The position numbers and the translations under genes are program-made. A model generated the notes under the pieces. It ran no database searches and was not told the origin of the DNA. It saw nothing but the letters and a program-made list of their open reading frames with translations. DNA of 64,000 bases from Dictyostelium discoideum (taxonomy: Eukaryota): positions 416,001 through 480,000 of the forward strand of contig CM000150.2 of the NCBI GenBank assembly GCA_000004695.1, in the 5' to 3' direction. This document shows, in pieces, positions 1 through 30,321 of this stretch. Position 1 is the first letter of the stretch. Each line of letters opens with the position of its first letter.

Positions 1-538
1 ATCAACAATGAAACCAACCTTATGGAAACCAATCGCCGGTAGTTACAATACCATTCCAGGTGAGTCAACCATTTGTGGTGATATTCGTTTAACTCCATTC
101 TATGATATGAAAGAAATGCGTGCAAAAGTTGAAGGTTATATCAAAGATATCAATGCCAATATCACTGAACTTCGTAATAGAGGTCCATACAGTAAATATG
201 ATGTACCAGCCTCTGAAGGTGTTGAACCAGTCAAAGGTTCAGTCTCTATTGAATGGTTAGGTGAAGCATCAGCTGGTGTCGCTTGTAAACTCGACTCTGA
301 TGGTTACAAAGCACTTGGTAAAGCTACTTCTGAAATTTTAGGTTCATTAACTCCAGTTGCAACTTGTGGTACTCTTCCTTTGGTTCGTGATCTCCAAGAT
401 AGTGGTTTCGATATTCAAATTACTGGTTTTGGTAAAGAAGAAACTTATCATGCTGATAATGAATATGCTTTATTATCTGATTTTAAAAATGCTATTAAAA
501 TTTTATCTCGTACAATTGATTTATTAGAAAAAAATTAA
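1..538 (+). CDS. 3'-terminal part (about 178 aa, 5' end lies outside the window) of a peptidase M20-family enzyme (ArgE/DapE/ACY1-like; possibly acetylornithine deacetylase)
   Basis: The open frame runs from the window edge (codon phase starting at nt 2) to TAA at 536-538. The C-terminal motif '...GFGKEETYHADNEYALLSDF...' matches the conserved H-x-x-NE-Y(V) metal/dimerisation region near the C-terminus of M20 peptidases. Codon usage is Dictyostelium-like. Confidence 0.6.
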   Translation, partial: STMKPTLWKPIAGSYNTIPGESTICGDIRLTPFYDMKEMRAKVEGYIKDINANITELRNRGPYSKYDVPASEGVEPVKGSVSIEWLGEASAGVACKLDSDGYKALGKATSEILGSLTPVATCGTLPLVRDLQDSGFDIQITGFGKEETYHADNEYALLSDFKNAIKILSRTIDLLEKN

Positions 539-9850: not shown

Positions 9851-10061
9851 TTATCTTATAAATTTAAAATAAATAATAATGCAATTTTTTTTATTTTTTT
9901 ATTTTGAAATTTCATTTAATTGTTTTAGTGTATGATTTTATTTGTTCGTGTAATCATTTTATTAATGCATTGAAATATTTAAATGATAAAATAATTAAAC
10001 TAATATTTATATTATTGAATTGGCTTGGGTAAGTGAAAAAACTATAATTACTATTATTATT

Positions 10062-10082
10062 TATTATTTTTTTTTAATATTA

Positions 10083-10113
<31 letters not shown>

Positions 10114-11479
10114 AACGGACATGCATTTTTGGATGATGCATAGATTGTTTGATTGCAAATGGAGTTATTAACAGTGGTTAAGACGGTGAATTCAGTATTG
10201 GAGCATCTAATATATACCTTTATCTCTGGTTTGGTTGTACAAATGGTAGGGGTAGATGATGAATTAAATGAAATTAAAATATTGTTTGATGTGTTACTAC
10301 TTGCAATAAATGGTACTTTGGATACTGTAGGTTTATCAAGGAATGGAATGGTTGTTTTTCCAAGTCCTAAAATAAGACAACCATAATACTTTCCACTTAA
10401 TCTTGAGAATTTATTACATACATCAACAGTACCACCGAAATTGAAAAGGAATCTATTGGGTTCTAGAGCTGACGAATATGGATTTGATGATGATGTTCTT
10501 TAATAATTTTTTTTTTTTATCAGTAAAATAAAATCTATAAAAGAAAATAATAATAATAATAATAATAAAATACATACAATTTCAATGATCTTAAATCATA
10601 TTGATTGCCACCAAATAAGTATTTGTTTTCAATTGGACAGGCAAATTTAGTGGAGATTTGTTGGATACCTTGTACCATTGACTGAAACACGTTATTGAAT
10701 TGGACCCTCACCAGCTGTAGCAGTACATAAAGTTGATGTTTCACAAAGACTAAAATAAAAAATGTTGCTACCATTTGTTGTAGTATATTGTGATGGTCCT
10801 AAAACACTATTGAGATTAATTAATTAATTTAATTTTTTAAAAATATAAAATAAATAGGTTAGATAATAAAATAATGATAAATTAAAATAAAAATAAAATA
10901 AAAGAATACATACTTTGAAGTTGGTGATAAATCGAAAAATCTATTTTTAGAATCTTGGAAAACACATCTATTTTTAGAATCTTTAGTATGTGGACTATCC
11001 ACTCTAGCATTTTGAATGAAATCATAGTGGTTTGTATCAGAGTATGTATAAACATAATTGTAAAGACTATAAAATGGAATGGTTTTTGGATTTCCAACTT
11101 CTACAGTTAATAATGATTGAATAGAATTAACTTGGTCTTCCAATACACCAATCGAAGCACGAGAGGATATATCGGTTGTCTTTGATTGAGCAGAGGTTGA
11201 ATTTGATTCGAGTGATGATGTTTTTGGTGCAATGAATTGGAAATTACTTTCAAAGAAACACAAATTATTTGAATTTAATGATTGATAAATCATTGGTTTT
11301 TTATCATTATTGGCTGCATTTAATAACTCTATGAAATATGTTTTGAAATCATAAACATTTTCTTTATTACTTAACACATCAATTAAAAATGATACACTTG
11401 ATTCTTTAAAACCTTCTAATTCATATAAATCATAAAAGAATGATGTTATTGAAGAGCTGTAATATGATTGAACATTCAA
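10062..11479 (-). CDS. Ill-defined minus-strand gene or gene remnant: a long open frame at 10859-11479 with no ATG, and an open terminal-exon-like frame at about 10062-10498 ending in a hydrophobic tail (…ACPFYLFIYLFIYLFIIL*). The structure is not resolved.
   Basis: A 206-codon stop-free frame (10859-11479) has Dictyostelium-like composition, ends at a GTATGT donor (10913) and begins just after an in-frame TAA with only a TTG start. A second stop-free frame of about 145 codons (about 10062-10498) reads '...CNKFSRLSGKYYGCLILGLGKTTIPFLDKPTVSKVPFIASS...ICTTKPEIKVYIRCSNTEFTVLTTVNNSICNQ...'. I could not connect these in frame with canonical splice sites. Confidence 0.3.
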
Positions 11480-11758
11480 GAAAAAAAATTATTTTAAATA
11501 ATTTTAAATAAATAAAAAAAAAACAATCAATATTTTAATGTTTACTATGAAGCATTAAAAAAAACGCCATCAATATTTTAGTGCATATCTTTTCAAAATT
11601 TTTAAAAAAAAACGAGCAAAATCTTGGTGTAAATGAATTCATTTTTTTTATTTTTTTTATTTTTCTTTGAAATATCTTTTGATGCTAAAAATACCAAACC
11701 AATCATGATTTATTCTAAAAAATTTTGAACATTTTATTTTATTTAATTTTATTTTTTT

Positions 11759-11821
<63 letters not shown>

Positions 11822-11852
11822 GCAAGAAACGATTAATTAAATAATTAAAAGA

Positions 11853-13187
11853 ATGAAATATTTGGTTACTATATTTTTATTATTTATTTTGTTCTCAATA
11901 ATTAAATGTCAACCTCCAAGATGTTTATACAGTGATATTTATGCAAAATCACCACACCCAAACTTAAAACCCTCTGTAAATTATGTTAATTGGTGGATTT
12001 ATGAACATTTTAATGATGCTGGTTATGGTGGTTCATCTTTTTATACAGATAGTAATTTAAAGGACCTAAATGAAAAAATTTTTGAATTGAGCGATTATAA
12101 TATGAGAGATCAAAACCAGGTATCTCCAATTACTCAAACATTCAGTCAAGTGAATGATCTTCTATTTTCAAGTATTTCTTACAATAATGCTTTTGATGAC
12201 GATTACTCAAAAGGAAGTGCACATGAAAAAGGATTTTTTATTTGGAACGAACAAGGTGGTATTCATGTTATTCATAGTATTCCAAAAACACCTCAAAAAA
12301 TGAATGATTTCTTTTTACATACCTCCAAAGATAATTATTTACAACATTCAATTTGTATTACATTGTCACAAGCTGAATTAGATATTATTCCTAAATATTT
12401 GATTTATACCAACCCTGCAATTGCAACAATAAATTCTAAAAAGATTACTGGTTCAATCATAAGTTCTTTAACAGAAGAAAGTATAACAGGTGTTAATAAT
12501 GTTAACAAAAACGATACATTTGATACAGTAACAGATATTGAAATTGGAGATACGGAACAGTTTACAGAAATCGATACAATTATTCAGGATAATTTTATTG
12601 TAGGTCCAACTCTCCCAAGAATTATTAAAATTCTACAATGGGCTAAATTGGTATGTATAATTATTTTTATTATTGTTTATTTTATAGTTGTAAATTATAC
12701 TCACTCAAATTATACCACTTTTTGTATTTCCCAGGCTAATCATGTCGCTGGAAATATTGATTTTTCATCAGATCCAAATTTTCCAAGCTATCATTATTAT
12801 AGAGCAAAGCAACATTCATTTGGTGAATACTTTGTTCAAACTCCAATACCAGAAAAGAAAAATATTATTGCTGGATCCTCTCAGTATAACTTGGCAAGAA
12901 TGAATAACATTGAAATTTTATGGCAATACATCGGTAAATATTACGGTAGTATTTCAAAATGGATGTCTCAAACAATGACTACAAATAAAGGATTTGCTAA
13001 TAATGTAGTTACTGGTACAACTTTCTCATTAACATTTAGGCTCAATTATCCATTCCTAAATAACCATCAACAAAGAAGTGCCTCAAAAGATCATTCAAAG
13101 TTCATGTATGGTACCAGTAACAATGGTCAACAAAAAATCTTTTGTATAGGTGGTTTAAATTGGCAAAGAGCTCAAGGTAGGATAAAA

Positions 13188-13266
<79 letters not shown>

Positions 13267-14458
13267 TATATATTATATATTATATATTATATTATTTATT
13301 ATTTATTATTACTAATTAATCGTTAATTTGAATATTTTTATTGATACAATACACTTCATAATTAGAATCAAGAGGAGGGGCAGCTTTTTGCATGAATGGT
13401 ATTGGTTATTTAGTTGATTATATGGAAAGACATGTATCATGGACAAGAAAAGGAATAGCCCAAAATCAAGTAAAATCTGGTGTCCCACAATCAACAGTAG
13501 GAACTGAAATAGACTTTTCTTGGATAAAGGATCAATTGAACATCCAAAATCTAGATATTCCCATGGGATTCGAAATTTTAATACCAACAACACAAAATCC
13601 ACTTCCAAAAAGAGTTATTGAACCAGCACAATCAAATTATAAAACCAAAAATGCTCCACTCCTTGTTGAACCTGTGCAGACACCATTAGGTGCATTAGTA
13701 GGTTATAAAACTGAGGCAATTTCAATTGATGTTTTCCCAAGTGTAAAAGATAAAGTACATATATGTCTACAATCATCCCAATGTCCGTATGAATTATCAG
13801 CTAAATCTAATATCATTTCAAATATTAATCTTATTGTTACTCCTTATCAATTAAACTCAGAATCAGAACCTGTTATGACAATTTCCTCCAATGCAAACCC
13901 TGCTATTTCTGTTTCACAAGTATTGAAGAATAATTATTTCTCTTCTATGGCCACTGAAAAAATAATTCAACTAAATGGTAATAATTTTGGAGTTTATTTA
14001 CAAAAGACTCAACAAACTCTAGGTGATTTTAAATTTAAATTTCCACAATCAAGTATCAATACCCCTTGTACTATTTCACCAATAGGTAGTAATATTATTT
14101 CAATTATGTTTCATGAAACTTGTGTTGATCAACTTATATTTTGCTTATTTAGTCATTTCCACATGTATTCAATTAATAATATACCAGTGTTTATGGTAGA
14201 TGACCAAGCTTCATTTTATAATGATGTTACCCAAATTCTTGTAAGATAATATTCAGTTACAAATATAAAATGCACAAAACTTTTTGATCATTACATTCTA
14301 ATACCATTATTAATTTTTTTAAATAGAATGAATTCTTTCCAAACATTCCAGATATCAGTAGATGTGTTGAACAACCACCTTCGCCTGGAACTGCAATGAC
14401 TGATAACGATGAAATTGATGAATTGATGGGATCTCAGGCCATGACTGATGAAATTTAA
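11853..14458 (+). CDS. Deoxyribonuclease II (DNase II) family protein with a long C-terminal extension. Four exons: 11853..12650, 12735..13176, 13375..14240, 14327..14458.
   Basis: N-terminal signal peptide (MKYLVTIFLLFILFSIIKC). The first DNase II catalytic motif 'SAHEKGFFIWNEQGGIHVIHSIPKTP' corresponds to human '[25 protein letters not shown]'. The second motif 'SASKDHSKFMYG...GGLNWQRAQG|GAAFC' corresponds to human 'EDHSKW...QRGGGTLC'. Splice sites: GTATGT(12651)..CAG(12734), phase 0, an in-frame 84-nt intron. GTAGG(13177)..AG(13374), phase 1, through an (ATT)n tract. GTAAGA(14241)..AATAG(14326), phase 0. The last exon ends in an acidic tail 'DNDEIDELMGSQAMTDEI*'. Confidence 0.7.
13186..13262. 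repeat. (ATT)n microsatellite of about 25 units inside intron 2 of the DNase II-like gene. It produces the spurious poly-Tyr tail of the six-frame ORF 11853..13319.
   Basis: Direct reading. Confidence 0.9.
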
Positions 14459-14689
14459 AAAATTAATAATCAAAAAAAAACACTGTTTTTAAAAAAAAAA
14501 AAAATAATAAAAAAAAAATCTAAAAAAATTGAATCACGATATGGTATCTGTATTGTTTATGGCTTGATTTAAAATTTGTGGTAAATCTTTGACCTTAGGA
14601 TTCTATTTTAATTTCCAAAAAAAAAAAAGTAATATCAAATTGAATTTTTAAATGACAAATGATAGTATTTTATTTTTTAATTGTAAATT

Positions 14690-15790
14690 ATTCTTTTTCA
14701 ATACAAACTTTAACTTTGTATTGGATTTGATGAAGGATGATCCAGATTTATCATTATAACAAATAAGGGTATTATTATATGCATAGTTAAATTCTACTTC
14801 TCCTGGATAACAGGCAAGTTTATTTGATGCAGAGTTGAATTCTGTGATAATTGTTTGATTGGTAATTACAATTGGCTCTACTTCGGATGGTGGAACTTCA
14901 AAGCATGCATGAATAATCTGAAGCTTTTACCAATGAATTCTTTGAGCATGATGAATATTTATTGTAACTATAGCATTCTACATTATTAATGAATGAATGT
15001 TCAGGTTCACCGCCATCACTAACACATTCAACAATGTTTGATTGGGTTTCGCTATTTGAACAGAAAATAGTAGAATTATGATTGTATGAATATTCATTGA
15101 ATCCATCTTTACAATAGATTGGACTATTTTGACCATAGAATATCATTGATTTTTCATTGGCATTGTATTCACATTTTAATGAACTTGAAACTTTTGAAAC
15201 TGTTGAAATAGAGAATTTATAGTCAATGCAGATTTTGAACGAACACCACAATTAATTTCAGTTACAAAGTTGGTTGTATTACATTTAATACCATTATTAT
15301 TAGCATCAATTTGACAAGTGATTGATTTGTTGAAATTGAAACTAAAATTATTATTATCAATACATGTTACAGTTTCATTGAATTGATTATCAATTGTAAA
15401 GATACGATCATTATGATTAATTGAGAAAAATACTGCAGAGTAAGGTGTTGAAGCAATTGATAAAAGATTGGATGTTGGTACTGGTGCTGTTGATGATGAT
15501 AATAGGTTTCCACCCATTGATGATTTTGTTACCACCAATGCTAAAGCTATAGTTGATACACGTTTAATACCATTCTTTGCAACCTGAGTTACAACTCTTC
15601 TTGTTACCTCTGCGAACCCAAATTGTAATGATTTCTCTAATGCTCCTGAAAATGATGCTGTAGATGCTAATATTGAACCAGATTGAGCTGCTGTTGCAGA
15701 TGTTGCAGATGTTGCAAATGCTATTTGTGTAAGTGGTAAAGCAGTTGATGCTAATAATGCTGCTGCAACCAAAGATTAAGATTTGTTCAT
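14690..15790 (-). pseudogene. Decayed member of the secreted Cys-rich family seen at 596-1778 and 4108-5374
   Basis: On the minus strand, ATG(15790-15788) AAC AAA TCT TAA gives 'MNKS*', immediately followed in frame by 'SLVAAALLASTALPLTQIAFA' (signal-peptide-like). So a nonsense codon sits at codon 5. Coding-like sequence then continues through three different frames (15772-15176, 15251-14898 and about 14890-14690) with no GT..AG introns to reconcile them. Segment 2 '...GQNSPIYCKDGFNEYSYNHNSTIFCSNSE...' is clearly homologous to '...NSPIYCESNENGLFINSTELIVCTGNG...' of the 4108-5374 gene. Confidence 0.6.
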
Positions 15791-20025: not shown

Positions 20026-21354
20026 TTAAAAGAAAAAGAAAAAAAAACAAATTAATAATAATATAATAAAAGTATAATTATTTGTATTTAATTTAGAATT
20101 TGAATTATTTTTATCAGAATTTTCATTATCTTGATTATTTTTTGGTTTTAATTCATTATTTGATGAATTATTTGAAGTATTATTATTATTACTATCATTA
20201 TTTTCATCAGCACTACTATTATTATCTTGACTAATTTCATCATTACTTATATCTTTTGGTTTAATTGGTTTTAAAGTTAAATCATCAGTATCATTATATG
20301 TACCATTTCTAGATTCTAAATTATAATTTAAAAAATAATTATTTTCTAAACTTGTTGAATTTGTAATTATACATTTTAGGGAATCTGGTAATTTACAACC
20401 ACCAAATTCAAAACGAAGACAACGAGAATAGAAACAAACTGCATGTTGTTGACAATTTTTCATAACACAACTATTGGCATTGGTTTCATGAATACCATTG
20501 ATATCATTAACTACTGAGCATTGACTACCTTTTAAACATTGTTGTAGGTTTGTATAAAGTTTTGAACAAGTTGCATCAATATTAAATTTAGAATTACATG
20601 TAGAATTGGAAGATTTACCTGAACATTCACATTCTTGCCAAAACGTGTCACAATCTTTATTGGATTTACATGTTTGTTTACCATTAACCATCTCGGCACA
20701 ACTTGACACTAGGCCACTTGTGGTGGGGCAGTATAGCCCACCCTCCATATCACACTCGCCAAATTGCGTAGCGTAGCAAGATTGGCCAATGGATTTCGAG
20801 AATAATGGAACACACTTACCTTGTAAATAATTTGATCTGCCATCTTCCATACCGCAAATAGCGTCTTGTGTACATTGGTCAACTTTGAATAAACAGTCTG
20901 CACCCATTGGTAATCTTTGTACACACTGATTGAATTTGTTACAATAACTATTGGAATCACAATCTTCATTCATTGAACAGTTGTTGAGTTTCTTTAATTT
21001 ACAAATTCCTTTAGTGCATAATAAACTACCTAAACATTCAGAACTTGATAAACATCTTTCACCAAGTCCATATAATTTCGATGGTTTACAAACTCTATAT
21101 TGACCTTGATTAATACATTTAAATCCTAATGAACATTCTTTATTACTATTACATCTACCATCTTCTAATTTACCTTCAACACATAATCCACTATTACCAC
21201 AATAAAATCCTGGTGAACATTCTTTTTGACTTTTACCACATTTTGCACCTTTAATACCACATTTATAATCATTTGAACAAATTTCTCCTCCAAATGATAT
21301 TTTAATTTTAAAAATTGTTAAAATTATTAAAATTAATAATAATTTTAATTTCAT
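20026..21354 (-). CDS. Secreted Cys-rich protein (442 aa) made of repeated 6-8-Cys modules (Dickkopf-N/colipase-like spacing), an Asn/Ser/Asp-rich acidic tail and a hydrophobic C-terminus
   Basis: Single 1329-nt ORF. Signal peptide MKLKLLLILIILTIFKIKISFG. Reiterated C-x(4-6)-C-x(4-8)-C...G-x-C modules (e.g. CSNDYKCGIKGAKCGKSQKECSPGFYCGNSGLCVEGK). C-terminal 'FIILLLICFFFFFF'. Confidence 0.75.
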   Translation of the reverse strand: MKLKLLLILIILTIFKIKISFGGEICSNDYKCGIKGAKCGKSQKECSPGFYCGNSGLCVEGKLEDGRCNSNKECSLGFKCINQGQYRVCKPSKLYGLGERCLSSSECLGSLLCTKGICKLKKLNNCSMNEDCDSNSYCNKFNQCVQRLPMGADCLFKVDQCTQDAICGMEDGRSNYLQGKCVPLFSKSIGQSCYATQFGECDMEGGLYCPTTSGLVSSCAEMVNGKQTCKSNKDCDTFWQECECSGKSSNSTCNSKFNIDATCSKLYTNLQQCLKGSQCSVVNDINGIHETNANSCVMKNCQQHAVCFYSRCLRFEFGGCKLPDSLKCIITNSTSLENNYFLNYNLESRNGTYNDTDDLTLKPIKPKDISNDEISQDNNSSADENNDSNNNNTSNNSSNNELKPKNNQDNENSDKNNSNSKLNTNNYTFIILLLICFFFFFF

Positions 21355-23478: not shown

Positions 23479-24790
23479 ATTAATTTAATTTTAGGTATCA
23501 ATTAGATCAGGTGGTCATTCAGCAACACAATTTTCAATGTTAAATAAAACTGTTAATATTGATTTAAGTTCATTAAAAGGTATTGAAATTGATGTTGAAG
23601 CTCAAACTGTTGTTGTACAAGCTGGTGTACAAGTTATTGAATTATATAATGCCACAACTAAATTATTATTGGCAACAACTGCTGGTAGTTGTCCAACTGT
23701 TGGTATGGGTGTTGTATTAGGTGGTGGATCAAATTACTTTGGTGGTAAATATGGTTATATGGCTGATAACATATTAGAATTCACCGTTGTACTTGAAGAT
23801 GGTTCAATTGTTAAAGCCAATCCAAAGAATAAATATAGTGATCTCTATTGGGCATTGGCTGGTTCTGGTGGTGGTGGTTTTGGTGTTGTTGTAGATTACA
23901 AAATTAAAGTTTACCCAATTCCGCAATATTTTTACAAGAATACCATTCGTTTCGATATTGTCAATTTAGATAAAGCTCTCGCCTTATTGGATTCTTATGT
24001 ACGTTCTGCCACTGAACAAACTCGTGAAAATATCTATGTCAATATGTACTCTCAATTAACTTTGAAATCCGCAAATATGACTCCATCCGCTAGTATTACA
24101 TTCTTTTACAATGGTCCACTTGAAGAGGGTGATTTCGAATTCAGAAAATTGTTAGCCGATTTCCTTTGTCCACCATCAAATCCAACCTGTACACCATTGG
24201 GTAGAGTCACCACCATGGATATCCAAACTTTAAAGAAAACATTCTGGGAAGTCATTAGCTCAATGAGTTATGATAATAATCCATTAAGACAATTCACCAA
24301 AGGTAGATTCGTTAAGAAATTATCTAAAAACGATGTACCAAATGCTATCAACGATTTCTATAAATATGCCGTCACCAATATCATCAATTCAACCTCTTTA
24401 ATTAAACCAGAAACATTGTTAAATATTAATCAAGCTATTTTCTATCATGGTGGTAAACAAAATCAAGATAGAACTGGTTCAATCGATTCTCCATTCAATT
24501 CTTTCCTTCACAGAGGTGATGAAGCTATGTGGTCATACACTATTGTCGCTCAATATAATAACACTGAAAATGATCCATTATTCTCTGGTCTTAGAAAACT
24601 TGTAAACTCTAAACTCTCTTCAATTGGTGATAAATTAAATAATAACTATCCAGATGATGAATTTGAAGATTGGCAAACCGGACTCTATGTCACCAAATCA
24701 AATTATAAAAAACTTCAAGAAATTAAAGGAAAATATGATCCAAATAATTATTTTAATTATCCACAATCAATTGAATTACCAAAGAAATAA
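23137..24790 (+). CDS. FAD-linked oxidoreductase of the berberine-bridge-enzyme / vanillyl-alcohol-oxidase type (FAD_binding_4 + BBE-like C-terminus), secreted. Two exons: 23137..23355 and 23495..24790.
   Basis: Signal peptide MKLNNILLFLSFVLITINQ. Exon 1 ends '...AQSINRG' at GTAAGT (23356). Acceptor TTAG|GTATCA at 23494/23495. Exon 2 begins 'VSIRSGGHSATQFS...', the FAD-binding 'R-S-G-G-H' motif. It goes on with '...GSCPTVGMGVVLGGGSNYFGGKYGYMADNILEFTVVLEDGSIVKA...DLYWALAGSGGGGFGVVVDYKIKVYP', typical of this family. The C-terminal 'KYDPNNYFNYPQSI' resembles the BBE domain. Confidence 0.85.
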
Positions 24791-27513: not shown

Positions 27514-27865
27514 ATGTCAACAACATCAATGATATTAACTAAAAAAAATATAATAATATTATCAATTATAATTATAACAATAATTGCATATCAATTTTAT
27601 ATAACATCACCACAATCATTCCCATCATCAAATACAATCACAAATACAATAAATACATCTGGTAAAGGATTAGATTATACAGAATTATTAAATTTACAAA
27701 AAGATTTAAAAGCGCAACAAACTGAAATTAGAAAACAATTAGAACAATTAAAATATTCAATTAATGATATAAATCAAAATCAAAATGAAAATCAAAATCA
27801 AATTAACAATGAATATAATAATAATAAATTAAATGATGAACAAGAAAATAATAATAATAATAATT

Positions 27866-27896
<31 letters not shown>

Positions 27897-28929
27897 ATTA
27901 ATAAATTATAAAGAAAGAATTAAAAAGAAATCAAAAGAACAACCAAATACATGTATACCAGTTGAAGGTAAATTATTATGTTTACCAAATTTTATAGTTA
28001 TTGGTACAATGAAGAGTGGTACAACATTTTTAGATTATTATTTACAAAAGCATCCACAAATCGCTCATCATAGTAAGAAAGAGATTTGGTATTTCAATAG
28101 TTATTATGCAAATGGTATTGAATGGTATGCAAAACATTTTGAACAATATACAAGTTTAGAGAATCAGAAATTAATTGGTGAAGCAACACCATTCTATATT
28201 AATAATCCAAATACTGCACCACGTTTATTTACAACCCTAAAGAATGCCAAATTGATTCTACTATTGAGAGACCCAGTGGAACGTTCCTTATCACAATACC
28301 ATTTCTCAATTCAATGGTTAAAAAGAAACAAGTCACCACCATTGGAATACTCTTTTGAGCATTTAATCCATGAAGAAGCTGACGTAATTGAAACTTGTAT
28401 ACGTGGTCATGAGAGATATAAAGAAGCATTTAAACAAAGAAAAGAAATTGAAAAGAATGGCGGTGGTGGTTTACTAAATGATAATACTAGTGGTGAAGAA
28501 TTCAATTTGGTTGATCCTTTTTACACTTTACATTCTGAAAAGAATTGGACATTCTATAAAGATTGTATTAGATGTGATAAATGTTTCCAAATTGGTTCAA
28601 TTCTTCATACAAGTGGTCATCCAACTTTTGGTATGTTAGCAAAATCACTCTATTTTGAGCAATTGGATTATTGGTTAAACTTTTTCCCATTGGAACAAAT
28701 TCATATCATTAGATATGAAGATATCTCTTCACAACCTGAATCAGTTTTAAGTGAATTAGAAGATTTCTTAGATATTAATCATATTGATTATGGTGAATTT
28801 AAACCAAGAAATGTTGTACAACATGATCCAATGAATCAAGAAATTAAATCATATTTAATTAATTATTTTAAACAAAGTAATGAAAAACTTTATAATTTAT
28901 TAAATAGAGATTTTAAATGGCAAAATTAA
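27514..28929 (+). CDS. Type-II membrane sulfotransferase (471 aa) with PAPS-binding 5'-PSB and 3'-PB motifs of the heparan-sulfate sulfotransferase (HS3ST/NDST sulfotransferase-domain) type
   Basis: Single ORF. N-terminal TM anchor (IIILSIIIITIIAYQFYI). A coiled/poly-Asn stem. Then 'CLPNFIVIGTMKSGTTFLDYYL' (5'-PSB, K-S-G-T-T) and 'LLLRDPVERSLSQYHF' (3'-PB, R-D-P-x-x-R-x-x-S). Confidence 0.8.
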
Positions 28930-29091: not shown

Positions 29092-29260
29092 TTATTTAAA
29101 TTTTTTTAAATTTAAAATTAAATTATTTGAAATTGATTTTAAAATTGTTAAATTTAAATTTTTGTTAAAATTATTTAAATTATTTGAAAATGTTGAAAAT
29201 CTTTGAAATAAAATATTATTTAAATTTTTATTTTTAATAATATTTAAATTATTTAAAAAA

Positions 29261-29291
<31 letters not shown>

Positions 29292-30321
29292 TATTATTAT
29301 TATTATTATTAAAATTTATATCTTTAATTGATTCTTTAAAAACTCTTTTTGTATATTCATCATTATTTGTTAATTCATTTTTTTTTAAAATTTTTTGATT
29401 TAAAAATTCTGGTCTACTATTATTTGATTTTAAATTATAATTAAAAAAATTTTGAGTAACTTTATTAAATTGTAAAACATCTTCCAATTGTAAAGAGTGA
29501 CCTGAATTTTCACAAATATAAATTAAATTTGGTTGAATAATATCATAGGTTTTAATAACTCTTTTACAATCAATGAATTTATCATGTGTACCGAAAAACA
29601 TTACAATTGGAAATGGTCTATTTAAAACTTTTTCTTTAATTTTATTATAAGGTTTAATTTTATATTTTATCATTGCAAACATTGTTGAAATTATTATTGA
29701 GGGGGAGATTGTTTTTCTCTCATTATACATTTTCGAGAGTAATGGTAGTATGAATTCCCTGTTATTTCCATACTGTTTAATTCTAGATGGTGAATTTAAA
29801 AATGATTGGGAATATAATAAATCAATTAAATAATTTGATGGGTCGACTTTATTCTTTTTTGCAATGTAGTCTATGAGGTATAATTGTTGAGCACCTTTTT
29901 GAAATAGGAATCCGTAGTTTATATTGGGTGGGAATGATACTAAATTGAGGGTTTTTATAATTGATGGTGCCATTAGGGATAGCTCATATGCGATACTTGA
30001 TCCCATGGATACACCAACTATATTAACTTTTTCCCATTTTAAATGCTCAATTAATTCATTGGCATCTGATGCAAAATCATTTATACTACTTACACCATTA
30101 AATTCAGATTCACCAACACCAACATGATCATAAATACAAATTGAATATTTATTTGGATTATTTTCTAAAAAATATTTTATTGTTGATAACCAATATTTAC
30201 CACCTAATAATAATCCCATTATAAATAAACATTTCTCTTCACCATCTCCAAAAACTTTATAATTCATTTTAAATGGTTGATTTCTATTTTTAACATTTAT
30301 AAAAATATTTGAATTTTCCAT
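29092..30321 (-). CDS. Alpha/beta-hydrolase fold protein (409 aa) with a GxSxG nucleophile elbow and an Asn-rich C-terminal tail
   Basis: Single ORF. '...KVNIVGVSMGSSIAYELS...' is the G-V-S-M-G nucleophile motif. A downstream 'ENSGHSLQLED' supplies the catalytic His region. Low-complexity N/K-rich C-terminus. Confidence 0.75.

What the first reader, a model, noticed from the sequence alone, without database searches (positions are those of the whole stretch)
11853..14458. DNase II-family gene with both HxK motifs and an unusually long C-terminal extension
The product has a signal peptide and both DNase II catalytic signatures (SAHEKG...GGIHVIHSIPKTP; DHSKF...GG-AAFC). But exon 3 continues for about 290 residues beyond the point where metazoan DNase II ends, plus a 44-residue acidic terminal exon. 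That gives roughly 750 aa against about 360 aa for human DNase II. The extension has no obvious homology. It may be a novel accessory domain on a lysosomal/phagosomal nuclease of a professional phagocyte, or a fused neighbouring gene. Intron 2 carries an (ATT)25 tract. Intron 1 is in-frame (84 nt), so six-frame analysis reads straight through it.
Basis: partly seen in the sequence, partly recalled or inferred. Interest (0 to 1): 0.5.

Follow-up and report, generated by a model that had tools for sequence, protein, structure and literature searches.

The report
Dictyostelium DNase II with orphan tail domain
This is one real, transcribed Dictyostelium discoideum gene (DDB_G0267616) for a DNase II-type nuclease joined to a 300-residue folded domain that occurs only in this genus and resembles nothing known; the protein family also avoids sugar-attachment sites and evolves unusually fast.

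Summary
Window 11853-14458 (+) is a four-exon gene. Its 748-aa product is identical to the annotated hypothetical protein DDB_G0267616 (UniProt Q55GL6) of D. discoideum AX4.

- **Nuclease part (residues 20-441).** This is a DNase II / PLD-superfamily domain (Pfam 1.9e-31). Both HxK motifs are invariant in 33 relatives.
- **Extension (residues 442-726).** It is not a fused neighbouring gene. It shares an exon with the last DNase II elements, is present in essentially every full-length relative, and was never found on its own among 1.84 billion representative proteins. AlphaFold models it confidently as a beta-sandwich plus an alpha/beta part, with six conserved Cys. Pfam and the PDB and viral structure sets give no convincing match.
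The intron-2 acceptor is at 13365, so the junction reads RAQ-ESR-GGAAFC. The tract is (ATT)24. The last exon encodes 43 aa.

New findings:
- N-glycosylation sequons are five-fold depleted across the family.
- dN/dS is about 0.6.
- Paralogues sit head-to-head with a giant TIG-domain membrane-protein gene. Decayed pieces of that gene flank the window copy.
- Transcripts are found in vegetative cells only, at about 8 TPM.

Function is inferred, not shown. Novelty: a new variant of a known kind. Interest is moderate.

The parts
11663..11852 (.). 190-bp intergenic region between the nuclease gene (+) and the divergent upstream gene (-). Probable bidirectional promoter; contains a 77-nt T/A homopolymer block at 11732-11808.
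   Evidence: The gene table places the neighbouring gene's end at window 11662. TRF result. The two flanking genes have matching vegetative-only TPM. Promoter function is inferred, not tested.
11853..12650 (+). Exon 1 (aa 1-266). Encodes the signal-peptide-like segment (aa 1-19, 11853-11909) and the first half of the DNase II domain, including the first HxK motif H124-E-K126 at 12222-12230.
   Evidence: hhalign aligns residues 42-191 to human DNase II 24-182, with HEKG on HTKG and C168 on human C159.
12651..12734 (+). Intron 1: 84 nt, GTATGT..CAG, in frame and without a stop codon.
   Evidence: The same intron position is found in P0008, P0013 and P0017.
12735..13176 (+). Exon 2 (aa 267-413, plus the first base of codon 414). 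Encodes the second half of the DNase II domain, including the second HxK motif D385-H386-S387-K388 (H-S-K at 13092-13100) and C403.
   Evidence: The second Pfam stretch covers residues 375-423 against profile positions 262-308 of 326.
13177..13365 (+). Intron 2: 189 nt, GTAGGA..TTAG. It contains (ATT)24 at 13189-13260, within an imperfect period-3 array at 13188-13311.
   Evidence: The acceptor choice is fixed by the family-conserved 'QESRGG'.
13366..13448 (+). Start of exon 3 (aa 414-441). Encodes the last conserved DNase II elements: E-S-R416-G-G-A-A-F-C422, then a helix and a strand (GYLVDYMERHVSWT).
   Evidence: R416, G417, G418 and C422 are invariant and match human R321-G-G-G...C327.
13449..13910 (+). 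Extension, first part (aa 442-595). Mostly beta, sandwich-like; contains conserved C547 and C553. pI 5.3.
13911..14240 (+). Extension, second part, exon-3 portion (aa 596-705). Alpha/beta; contains conserved C648, C666-x-D668-x-L670-x-x-C673.
14241..14326 (+). Intron 3: 86 nt, GTAAGA..ATAG, phase 0.
   Evidence: The position is conserved in P0008, P0013, P0017, P0022 and P0032.
14327..14458 (+). Exon 4 (aa 706-748 plus the TAA stop). Encodes the end of the folded module, including conserved C718 (to about aa 726, window 14389), then a disordered acidic tail (aa 727-748, pI 4.05) with the weakly conserved motif M-x-S-x-[SA]-M-x-D.
   Evidence: (pLDDT below 50 for residues 727-748).
10114..11468 (-). 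Decayed pieces of the 5' part of a giant TIG-domain gene, the head-to-head partner of this nuclease family in paralogous loci. Here it is annotated as a 414-aa gene, probably DDB_G0267614.
   Evidence: blastn identity of 88-92% to L006 6940-8537 and to L001/L007. Gene table. Co-expression.
14617..15774 (-). Remnant of the 3' end of the next cassette's giant TIG-domain gene; probably the dictyBase pseudogene DDB_G0267618_ps.
   Evidence: blastn identity of 92.8% to L006 12951-14121 and 91.3% to L006 1181-2333.

Best explanation
**Shown.** Window 11853-14458 is a single four-exon gene, DDB_G0267616. It is transcribed in vegetative (feeding) amoebae. The protein consists of:
- a cleavable-looking signal peptide (residues 1-19);
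- a divergent but complete DNase II / phospholipase-D-superfamily domain (residues 20-441);
- a roughly 285-residue C-terminal module of two sub-domains held by six conserved cysteines (residues 442-726);
- a 22-residue disordered acidic tail.

The module is confined to a multi-copy, fast-evolving DNase II-like family of the genus Dictyostelium and is always fused to the nuclease.

**Inferred from homology.** The enzyme enters the ER and folds oxidatively. It cuts DNA without metal ions by the two-step PLD mechanism. His124 of the first HxK attacks the phosphodiester and forms a phospho-histidine intermediate. His386 of the second HxK activates water. The products carry 3'-phosphate ends.

**Inferred, weaker.**
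- The C-terminal module is neither catalytic nor a DNA-binding domain. It is acidic, and its invariant residues are almost all cysteines.
- It most likely works as a docking or targeting module. It would position a deliberately glycan-free nuclease on a partner or on ingested or foreign material.
- The best candidate partner is the co-expressed, divergently transcribed giant TIG-domain membrane glycoprotein with which the family is arranged in cassettes.
- The window copy is a dispersed duplicate of such a cassette. In it only the nuclease gene stayed intact.
For: **Gene identity and model:**

**DNase II membership:**
- Pfam 1.9e-31.
- hhalign to human DNase II, 91.9% probability, over the first HxK region.
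- The N-terminal half of the AlphaFold model hits B. thailandensis DNase II 5i3e/5unb (E 3.9e-7), then PLD-superfamily members.
- Both HxK motifs, R416-G-G and four core cysteines are invariant or nearly so in 33 relatives.

**Mechanism:** by homology, from PMC5449587.

**The extension is real and one with the nuclease:**
- Shared exon.
- Single exon in DDB_G0270642.
- Conserved introns.
- dN/dS below 1.
- Confident fold: pLDDT 80.4 and pTM 0.79 for the full-length model; 85.5 and 0.83 for the module alone.

**Orphan status:**

**Acidic, Cys-locked module:**

**Expression:** vegetative only, 8.0/8.3 TPM.

**Sequon depletion:** 24 observed against 115 expected, with control motifs at expectation. 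This pattern only makes sense for a protein exposed to the ER glycosylation machinery.

**Cassette with the TIG gene and matching expression of neighbours:**
Against: - No enzymatic, localisation or proteomic data exist for this protein or any paralogue. No paper mentions them, and no hits were found in three omics supplements.
- The Trp that follows the second HxK in human and Burkholderia DNase II is Phe389 here (F/L/M/I across the family). The structural Asp after the first HxK is Asn132. Activity could therefore be altered.
- The docking idea is untested. In the window the TIG partner has decayed while the nuclease gene is intact and expressed. D. purpureum copies have no TIG neighbour. 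An obligatory cis-encoded partner is therefore unlikely.
- Splice junctions rest on sequence, conservation and two annotations. I did not inspect reads.
Confidence: 0.6

Rival explanations
1. Ordinary housekeeping lysosomal DNase II. On this reading the protein is simply the acid DNase that digests bacterial DNA in phagolysosomes, and the extension is a lineage-specific stabilising or pro-domain with no separate function.
For: - Family membership and a signal peptide.
- Expression only in feeding cells.
- Disulfide-rich and acidic, which is compatible with a lumenal acid hydrolase.
- An acidic disordered tail could be a removable pro-peptide.
Against: - Low transcript level: 8 TPM here, under 1 TPM for DDB_G0270642.
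- D. discoideum has 11 genes with DNase II GO annotation, and a different mRNA is the one called 'DNase II' in published trees.
- Five-fold sequon depletion. Canonical DNase II proteins are at or above expectation, and the human enzyme needs N-glycans (PMC5449587).
- dN/dS is about 0.6, and divergence is roughly ten-fold higher than in a flanking housekeeping gene.
Confidence: 0.25
2. Polymorphic effector of a conflict or recognition cassette. On this reading the secreted nuclease and the divergently transcribed TIG-domain membrane protein form a two-gene unit used by vegetative amoebae against non-self: competing amoebae, cannibalised cells or particular prey. The orphan module would mediate docking or delivery, and glycan-freeness would be needed for that.
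For: - Head-to-head cassettes, tandemly repeated, in D. discoideum strains and D. firmibasis, including the distant DDB_G0270642 subfamily.
- Similar vegetative-only TPM of the paired genes.
- At a syntenic locus the nuclease gene is 82.6-86.4% identical in nucleotides and the TIG gene 91.9%, against 98.8% for the adjacent ATP-sulfurylase gene.
- dN/dS of 0.6-0.9.
- Sequon depletion.
Against: - Purely circumstantial.
- The mosaic dS (0.05-0.52) suggests that gene conversion between paralogues inflates the divergence.
- No window shows a robust dN/dS well above 1.
- D. purpureum copies lack the partner.
- The window copy works without an intact cis partner.
- No immunity or antidote gene is evident.
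Confidence: 0.12
3. Annotation artefact. On this reading 13375-14458 belongs to a separate gene that has been wrongly joined to a normal-length DNase II.
For: - The length is twice that of canonical DNase II.
- The extension has no homology to anything known.
Against: - The open frame 13392-14249 continues directly from the RGGAAFC strand of the nuclease fold.
- The architecture is the same in all full-length family members across at least six named species or strain groups.
- It is never found alone among 1.84 billion representatives.
- DDB_G0270642 has a single exon spanning both parts.
- The full-length model has pTM 0.79.
Confidence: 0.02
4. Catalytically inactive pseudo-nuclease: a DNA-binding or structural protein that merely keeps the DNase II fold.
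For: - The family departs from canonical DNase II at the Trp after the second HxK (Phe389) and at the Asp after the first HxK (Asn132).
- Evolution is fast.
Against: - Both His and both Lys of the HxK motifs, and R416-G-G, are invariant in 33 sequences despite 27-90% overall identity.
- dN/dS is lowest (0.3-0.4) around the first HxK region.
Confidence: 0.06

Closest known systems
Canonical eukaryotic DNase II (human DNASE2, 360 aa; Pfam PF03265)
   Same: - Signal peptide.
- Two HxK motifs: HEKG/HTKG, and an identical DHSK.
- An RGG(G)xxC motif.
- Cysteines aligning with human C159, C308 and C327.
- PLD-type fold.

   Different: - 748 aa against 330-375 aa.
- An insertion of about 80 residues inside the core.
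- A C-terminal module of about 285 residues plus an acidic tail.
- Phe instead of Trp after the second HxK.
- Asn instead of Asp eight residues after the first His.
- Sequons depleted rather than enriched.
Burkholderia thailandensis DNase II (PDB 5I3E/5UNB; PMC5449587)
   Same: It is the best structural match for residues up to about 441 (Foldseek E 3.9e-7, probability 1.00). It has the same two HxK catalytic centres, and the same two-step mechanism is proposed.
   Different: - The bacterial enzyme is a single-domain, homodimeric clamp of about 350 aa.
- Sequence identity is only 12-14%.
- It has no counterpart of the C-terminal module.
Lineage-specific expansions of secreted DNase II-like proteins (Trichinella spiralis, 125 predicted genes; plancitoxin-1-like; PMC4148230)
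   Same: DNase II family members multiplied within one lineage and diverged far from the housekeeping enzyme.
   Different: - A different lineage and an independent expansion.
- Those proteins are not reported with this C-terminal module.
- The Dictyostelium family keeps both HxK motifs in every member examined.
Other D. discoideum DNase II genes (e.g. DDB_G0290577; mRNA XM_630570.1 used as 'D. discoideum DNase II' in published trees)
   Same: Same organism and the same Pfam/GO class. Eleven genes carry GO:0004531.
   Different: They were not retrieved by either family search, so they are distant from this subfamily. Whether they carry the extension could not be checked here. The extension HMM found only the subfamily.
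tgrB1-tgrC1 allorecognition pair of D. discoideum (from my own knowledge, not tested here)
   Same: - A head-to-head gene pair with a short shared intergenic region.
- A TIG/IPT-domain membrane protein is involved.
- Divergence between strains is high.
   Different: - Here one member is a soluble nuclease, not a TIG protein.
- Expression is vegetative, not developmental.
- No evidence of a recognition function.

Membership tests
DNase II (PF03265), PLD superfamily | Significant match to the family profile above the curated cut-off | tested here: met
   109.9 bits against a cut-off of 23, E=1.9e-31, in two stretches: residues 43-241 and 375-423.
DNase II (PF03265), PLD superfamily | First catalytic HxK motif | tested here: met
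   H124-E-K126, aligned by hhalign to human HTK. H124 and K126 are present in every family sequence that covers this region.
DNase II (PF03265), PLD superfamily | Second catalytic HxK motif (DHSK) | tested here: met
   D385-H386-S387-K388, identical to human DHSK. H, S and K are invariant in 33 sequences.
DNase II (PF03265), PLD superfamily | PLD-type fold resembling a solved DNase II | tested here: met
   The AlphaFold model (pLDDT 80.4) hits 5i3e/5unb at E 3.9e-7 to 3.7e-6, followed by Tdp1, PPK and Zucchini.
DNase II (PF03265), PLD superfamily | Conserved Trp after the second HxK, within the W-W-R structural triad (PMC5449587) | tested here: not met
   The position is F389 here and F/L/M/I in the family. 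The Arg of the triad (R416) is invariant. This is a conserved structural feature, not a catalytic residue.
DNase II (PF03265), PLD superfamily | Single-domain architecture of about 330-375 aa | tested here: not met
   748 aa. The profile ends near residue 441 and about 307 further residues follow.
DNase II (PF03265), PLD superfamily | Secretory-pathway glycoprotein (signal peptide, disulfides, N-glycans) | tested here: inconclusive
   A signal-peptide-like N-terminus and the core cysteines are present. N-glycosylation sequons are five-fold depleted: 1 against 9.4 expected here, and 24 against 115 in the family. No signal-peptide predictor was available.
DNase II (PF03265), PLD superfamily | Metal-independent endonuclease with an acid optimum that leaves 3'-phosphate ends | not testable with these tools
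   Needs a biochemical assay.
Zincin-like / YbeY metallohydrolase fold (considered for residues 596-726) | Conserved metal-binding His/Glu motif (HExxH or H-x3-H-x5-H) on the central helix | tested here: not met
C2 / FN3-type beta-sandwich (considered for residues 442-595) | Clear structural superposition on a known sandwich family | tested here: inconclusive
Internal duplication of the DNase II half-domain | Profile-profile similarity between the extension and the nuclease domain | tested here: not met
   hhalign probability 0.08%.

The most novel reading that the evidence does not exclude
The DNase II-like nuclease with its orphan C-terminal module and the divergently transcribed giant TIG-domain membrane glycoprotein form a hypervariable two-gene effector/receptor cassette. 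Vegetative Dictyostelium would use it against non-self: rival amoebae, cannibalised cells or specific prey. The module would dock or deliver a deliberately glycan-free nuclease. That would make this a eukaryotic counterpart of polymorphic nuclease-toxin systems.
Probability: 0.1. Interest if true: 0.85.

Novelty: new variant of a known kind. Interest (0 to 1): 0.45.

Why it matters
DNase II is normally a compact, glycosylated, slowly evolving lysosomal enzyme. This case departs from that picture in several ways:
- A genus-specific family keeps the catalytic centre but adds a confidently folded 285-residue module with no detectable relatives.
- The family sheds N-glycosylation sites.
- It evolves fast.
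- It is organised in cassettes with a large TIG-domain membrane-protein gene.

The work gives three things:
- A defined orphan domain to characterise.
- A rare example of apparent selection against N-glycans in a secretory protein of a free-living eukaryote.
- A testable lead on how a professional phagocyte deploys nucleases, in digestion, defence or self/non-self conflict.

If the module turns out to be only a stabilising appendage, the finding is a modest annotation upgrade for five uncharacterised D. discoideum genes.

Tried and rejected
**Homology searches on the extension (all negative)**
- Pfam on the extension alone and on 18 family members at E up to 10: no consistent hit.
- PDB sequence searches with the protein and with the extension profile: nothing for the protein; one hit for the profile, SIZ1, at E 0.04.
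- HMM of the extension against 1.84 billion representatives: only five family proteins.
- Foldseek against BFVD: nothing below E 0.05.
- AFDB50 was not available.
- The extension as a diverged copy of the nuclease domain: rejected.
- Zincin/YbeY reading of the alpha/beta part: rejected for lack of a metal-binding motif.
- DNA-binding reading of the extension: disfavoured because it is acidic (pI 5.2; tail 4.05).

**Homology searches on the nuclease domain**
- Word-seeded searches with the whole protein and with the nuclease-domain profile found only genus Dictyostelium, plus one metagenomic DNase II.
- A search seeded with human DNase II plus that metagenomic protein returned 1446 hits. The 120 listed were almost all vertebrate sequences, so it did not reveal the other Dictyostelium DNase II genes.

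**Literature and omics**
- Searches for the gene, its paralogues, neighbours and accessions: no paper.
- Supplements of three omics papers had no entry.
- One supplement gave expression values.

**Other leads that failed**
- DNA of DDB_G0290837, the closest paralogue, could not be fetched.
- The P0003 gene model looks patched with micro-introns and was left out of the rate estimates.
- A TIG-domain neighbour was looked for in the window by Pfam and not found as such. DNA comparison then showed only decayed fragments.
- ER-retention reading of the C-terminal 'TDEI': rejected, because the last residues are not conserved.
Full report
**What is there**

The window is AT-rich dictyostelid DNA. Joining four GT..AG exons (11853-12650, 12735-13176, 13366-14240, 14327-14458) gives a 748-aa product. 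That product is 100% identical over its full length to 'hypothetical protein DDB_G0267616' of Dictyostelium discoideum AX4, also known as XP_647168.1 and UniProt Q55GL6. An independently annotated assembly carries the same 2606-nt gene.

- Intron 1 is 84 nt and in frame, so the mechanical ORF 11853-13319 reads through it.
- Both HxK signatures are present.
- The protein is about twice the length of canonical DNase II. The listed canonical proteins are 330-375 aa, and the human sequence I recalled matched a 360-aa database entry exactly.

Three small corrections:
- The intron-2 acceptor is the TTAG at 13365. The junction therefore reads RAQ-ESR-GGAAFC. 'QESRGG' is conserved across the family and corresponds to human 'EEQRGGG'.
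- The perfect tract is (ATT)24 at 13189-13260, inside a longer imperfect array.
- The last exon encodes 43 residues.

**The nuclease part**

Pfam DNase_II matches at E=1.9e-31. The match covers residues 43-241, and 375-423 against profile positions 262-308 of 326. The family domain therefore ends near residue 441. A profile of 33 relatives aligns residues 42-191 to human DNase II 24-182. In that alignment HEKG falls on HTKG and C168 on human C159.

An AlphaFold model built on the family alignment has pLDDT 80.4 and pTM 0.79. In the PDB it hits the Burkholderia thailandensis DNase II structures first (E 3.9e-7). Tdp1, polyphosphate kinase and Zucchini follow, all members of the phospholipase-D superfamily.

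H386-S-K388, R416-G-G, C403 and C422 are invariant in all 33 relatives. H124 and K126 are present in every member that covers that region. This holds although overall identity to the query falls to 27%.

By homology with the published mechanism (PMC5449587), His124 would form the phospho-histidine intermediate and His386 would activate water.

The core differs from the canonical enzyme in three ways:
- The Trp after the second HxK is Phe389.
- The structural Asp after the first HxK is Asn132.
- The core carries an insertion of about 80 residues.

**The extension is real and belongs to the same gene**

Several lines of evidence agree:
- Exon 3 encodes the final conserved strand and helix of the nuclease fold (ESRGGAAFC...HVSWT) and about 265 residues of the extension, in one open frame.
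- Intron positions are the same in DDB_G0291033 and in two D. firmibasis genes.
- In the distant paralogue DDB_G0270642 a single exon encodes residues 289-766. That exon covers the second HxK, the RGG motif and the whole extension.
- Every full-length relative has 317-350 residues after RGGxxFC, or more in some D. purpureum models.
- Six cysteines in the extension (547, 553, 648, 666, 673, 718) are conserved. The last of them lies in exon 4, which ties that exon to the fold.
- dN/dS for the extension is 0.46-0.68, so it is a coding sequence under constraint.

The 'fused neighbour' reading is rejected.

**What the extension is**

Modelled alone, residues 441-731 fold confidently (pLDDT 85.5, pTM 0.83). 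The model shows a mostly-beta sandwich (to about residue 595), then an alpha/beta part (about 598-708). Residues 727-748 are disordered and acidic in the full-length model.

Nothing known resembles it convincingly:
- No metal-binding motif is conserved.
- BFVD, Pfam on 18 members and a PDB profile search are empty.
- It is not a diverged copy of the nuclease domain.
- An HMM of the extension, read against 1.84 billion representative proteins, found five proteins. All are DNase II-fused members of this family.

The module is therefore an orphan. It is restricted, as far as can be detected, to the genus Dictyostelium: discoideum and close relatives, citrinum, dimigraforme, firmibasis and purpureum.

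It is acidic (pI 5.2; tail 4.05), and its invariant positions are almost all cysteines. This argues against a DNA-binding or catalytic role and for a structural or docking role.

**Expression**

In the cell-type RNA-seq of PMC6198379 (supplement 2), DDB_G0267616 has 8.0 and 8.3 TPM in vegetative cells. In cup, stalk and spore cells it has 0-0.19 TPM. The gene is therefore transcribed, at a modest level, in the feeding stage only. I did not inspect reads, so the splice junctions rest on sequence, conservation and two annotations.

1. *Sequon depletion.* The mature protein has 63 Asn and 116 Ser+Thr but only one N-x-S/T sequon. Shuffling predicts 9.4 ± 2.8. Over 13 family members the count is 24 against 114.9 expected, a ratio of 0.21, and both halves of the protein are depleted. 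Control motifs give ratios of 0.98-1.17. Other proteins sit at or above expectation: canonical DNase II proteins, a secreted Cys-rich ORF in the window, and the neighbouring TIG-domain protein. Such depletion implies that the protein is exposed to the ER glycosylation machinery and is selected to remain glycan-free. I have no established explanation for it.

2. *Fast evolution.* dN/dS is 0.62-0.68 against the paralogue DDB_G0291033, and 0.28-0.40 (nuclease) and 0.46-0.68 (extension) in comparisons with D. firmibasis genes. At a syntenic locus in two assemblies labelled D. discoideum, nucleotide identities are as follows:

| Segment | Nucleotide identity |
|---|---|
| ATP-sulfurylase gene | 98.8% |
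| Giant neighbouring TIG-domain gene | 91.9% |
| Nuclease gene | 82.6-86.4% |

   The sliding-window dS is mosaic (0.05-0.52). Gene conversion among paralogues therefore probably contributes to this divergence.

3. *Cassette organisation.* In paralogous loci the nuclease gene sits head-to-head, 54-513 bp apart, with a gene of about 2450 aa. That gene encodes a signal peptide, IPT/TIG domains and a hydrophobic stretch that looks like a membrane span. This holds for the distant DDB_G0270642 subfamily too. It does not hold for three D. purpureum copies.

4. *Origin of the window copy.* In the window, 10114-11468 and 14617-15774 (both on the minus strand) are decayed pieces of such giant genes. 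So 10114-15774 is a dispersed copy of part of an array, and in it only the nuclease gene remained intact. The upstream remnant (probably DDB_G0267614) has the same vegetative-only level (8.7/9.2 TPM). DDB_G0270642 likewise matches its neighbours. This is consistent with bidirectional promoters.

**Place among known things**

This is a member of the DNase II family by profile, motifs and fold. It is not the canonical enzyme. D. discoideum has 11 genes annotated with DNase II activity, and a different mRNA (XM_630570.1) is the one used as 'D. discoideum DNase II' in published trees. The extended subfamily has four apparently intact AX4 genes, plus DDB_G0270848, which dictyBase labels a pseudogene. 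No paper in the searchable library mentions any of these genes or their neighbours.

**Most likely function**

With moderate confidence, this is an active, metal-independent acid endonuclease of the secretory or endolysosomal route in feeding amoebae. Its lineage-specific module would act as a non-catalytic docking or targeting device, possibly for the co-expressed TIG-domain protein.

The rivals are:
- an ordinary lysosomal digestive enzyme with a stabilising appendage;
- a polymorphic effector/receptor conflict cassette;
- an inactive pseudo-nuclease.

None of these can be settled without biochemistry, localisation and population data.

**Verdict**

The extension is a novel accessory domain and not a gene fusion. 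Lysosomal location is unproven, and several features are atypical for it.
- Novelty: a new variant of a known kind.
- Interest: 0.45.

Noticed in passing
window 11853-14458 (protein-wide), and family members P0001-P0034: N-glycosylation sequons (N-x-S/T) are about five-fold depleted. The window protein has 1 against 9.4 expected; 13 family members together have 24 against 115. Control motifs are at expectation, while Q-x-[ST] is about two-fold enriched. Canonical DNase II proteins and neighbouring secreted proteins are not depleted.
   Followed up: partly
window 10114-11468 (-) and 14617-15774 (-); loci L001, L002, L004, L006, L007: The nuclease family is arranged head-to-head with a TIG/IPT-domain membrane-protein gene of about 2450 aa, sometimes in tandem cassettes. 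In the window only decayed fragments of that gene flank the intact nuclease gene. The 3' fragment is probably the dictyBase pseudogene DDB_G0267618_ps.
   Followed up: partly
L001 vs L007 (syntenic DDB_G0291033 locus in two assemblies labelled D. discoideum): The nuclease gene is 82.6-86.4% identical in nucleotides and the TIG gene 91.9%, while the adjacent ATP-sulfurylase/APS-kinase gene is 98.8% identical. dS along the nuclease gene is mosaic (0.05-0.52), which suggests exchange between paralogues.
   Followed up: partly
window 9974-11662 (-) and 11853-14458 (+); PMC6198379 supplement 2: The divergent neighbours have nearly equal, vegetative-only transcript levels: DDB_G0267614 at 8.7/9.2 TPM and DDB_G0267616 at 8.0/8.3 TPM. 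The same holds for DDB_G0270642 and DDB_G0270644/46, all at about 1 TPM. This suggests shared bidirectional promoters.
   Followed up: no
window 14390-14455 (aa 727-748): The disordered acidic tail carries a short motif, roughly [ILM]-M-x-S-x-[SA]-M-x-D. It recurs from D. discoideum to D. firmibasis and in one D. purpureum protein, but is absent from the DDB_G0270642 subfamily.
   Followed up: no
window 11732-11808: A 77-nt homopolymer block, a long T run followed by an A run, lies in the 190-bp intergenic region upstream of the ATG.
   Followed up: no
DDB_G0270848 (P0028, 514 aa) vs P0038 (775 aa): This AX4 paralogue is labelled a pseudogene in dictyBase and is modelled as a truncated 514-aa protein. 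A newer assembly annotation gives a 775-aa product in the same 90% identity cluster.
   Followed up: no
L006 10001-12625 (P0003, 708 aa): This gene model contains three extra micro-introns of 22-59 nt that other family genes lack. They look like patches over frameshifts, so this may be a pseudogene or an assembly error. It was excluded from the rate estimates.
   Followed up: partly
window 8-538, 20026-21354 (-), 23537-24790, 27514-28929, 29092-30321 (-): Other ORFs in the first half of the window, with Pfam hits where found: an M20 peptidase fragment; a 442-aa signal-peptide Cys-rich Asn/Ser-rich protein; an FAD/BBE oxidase; a sulfotransferase; an alpha/beta hydrolase.
   Followed up: no
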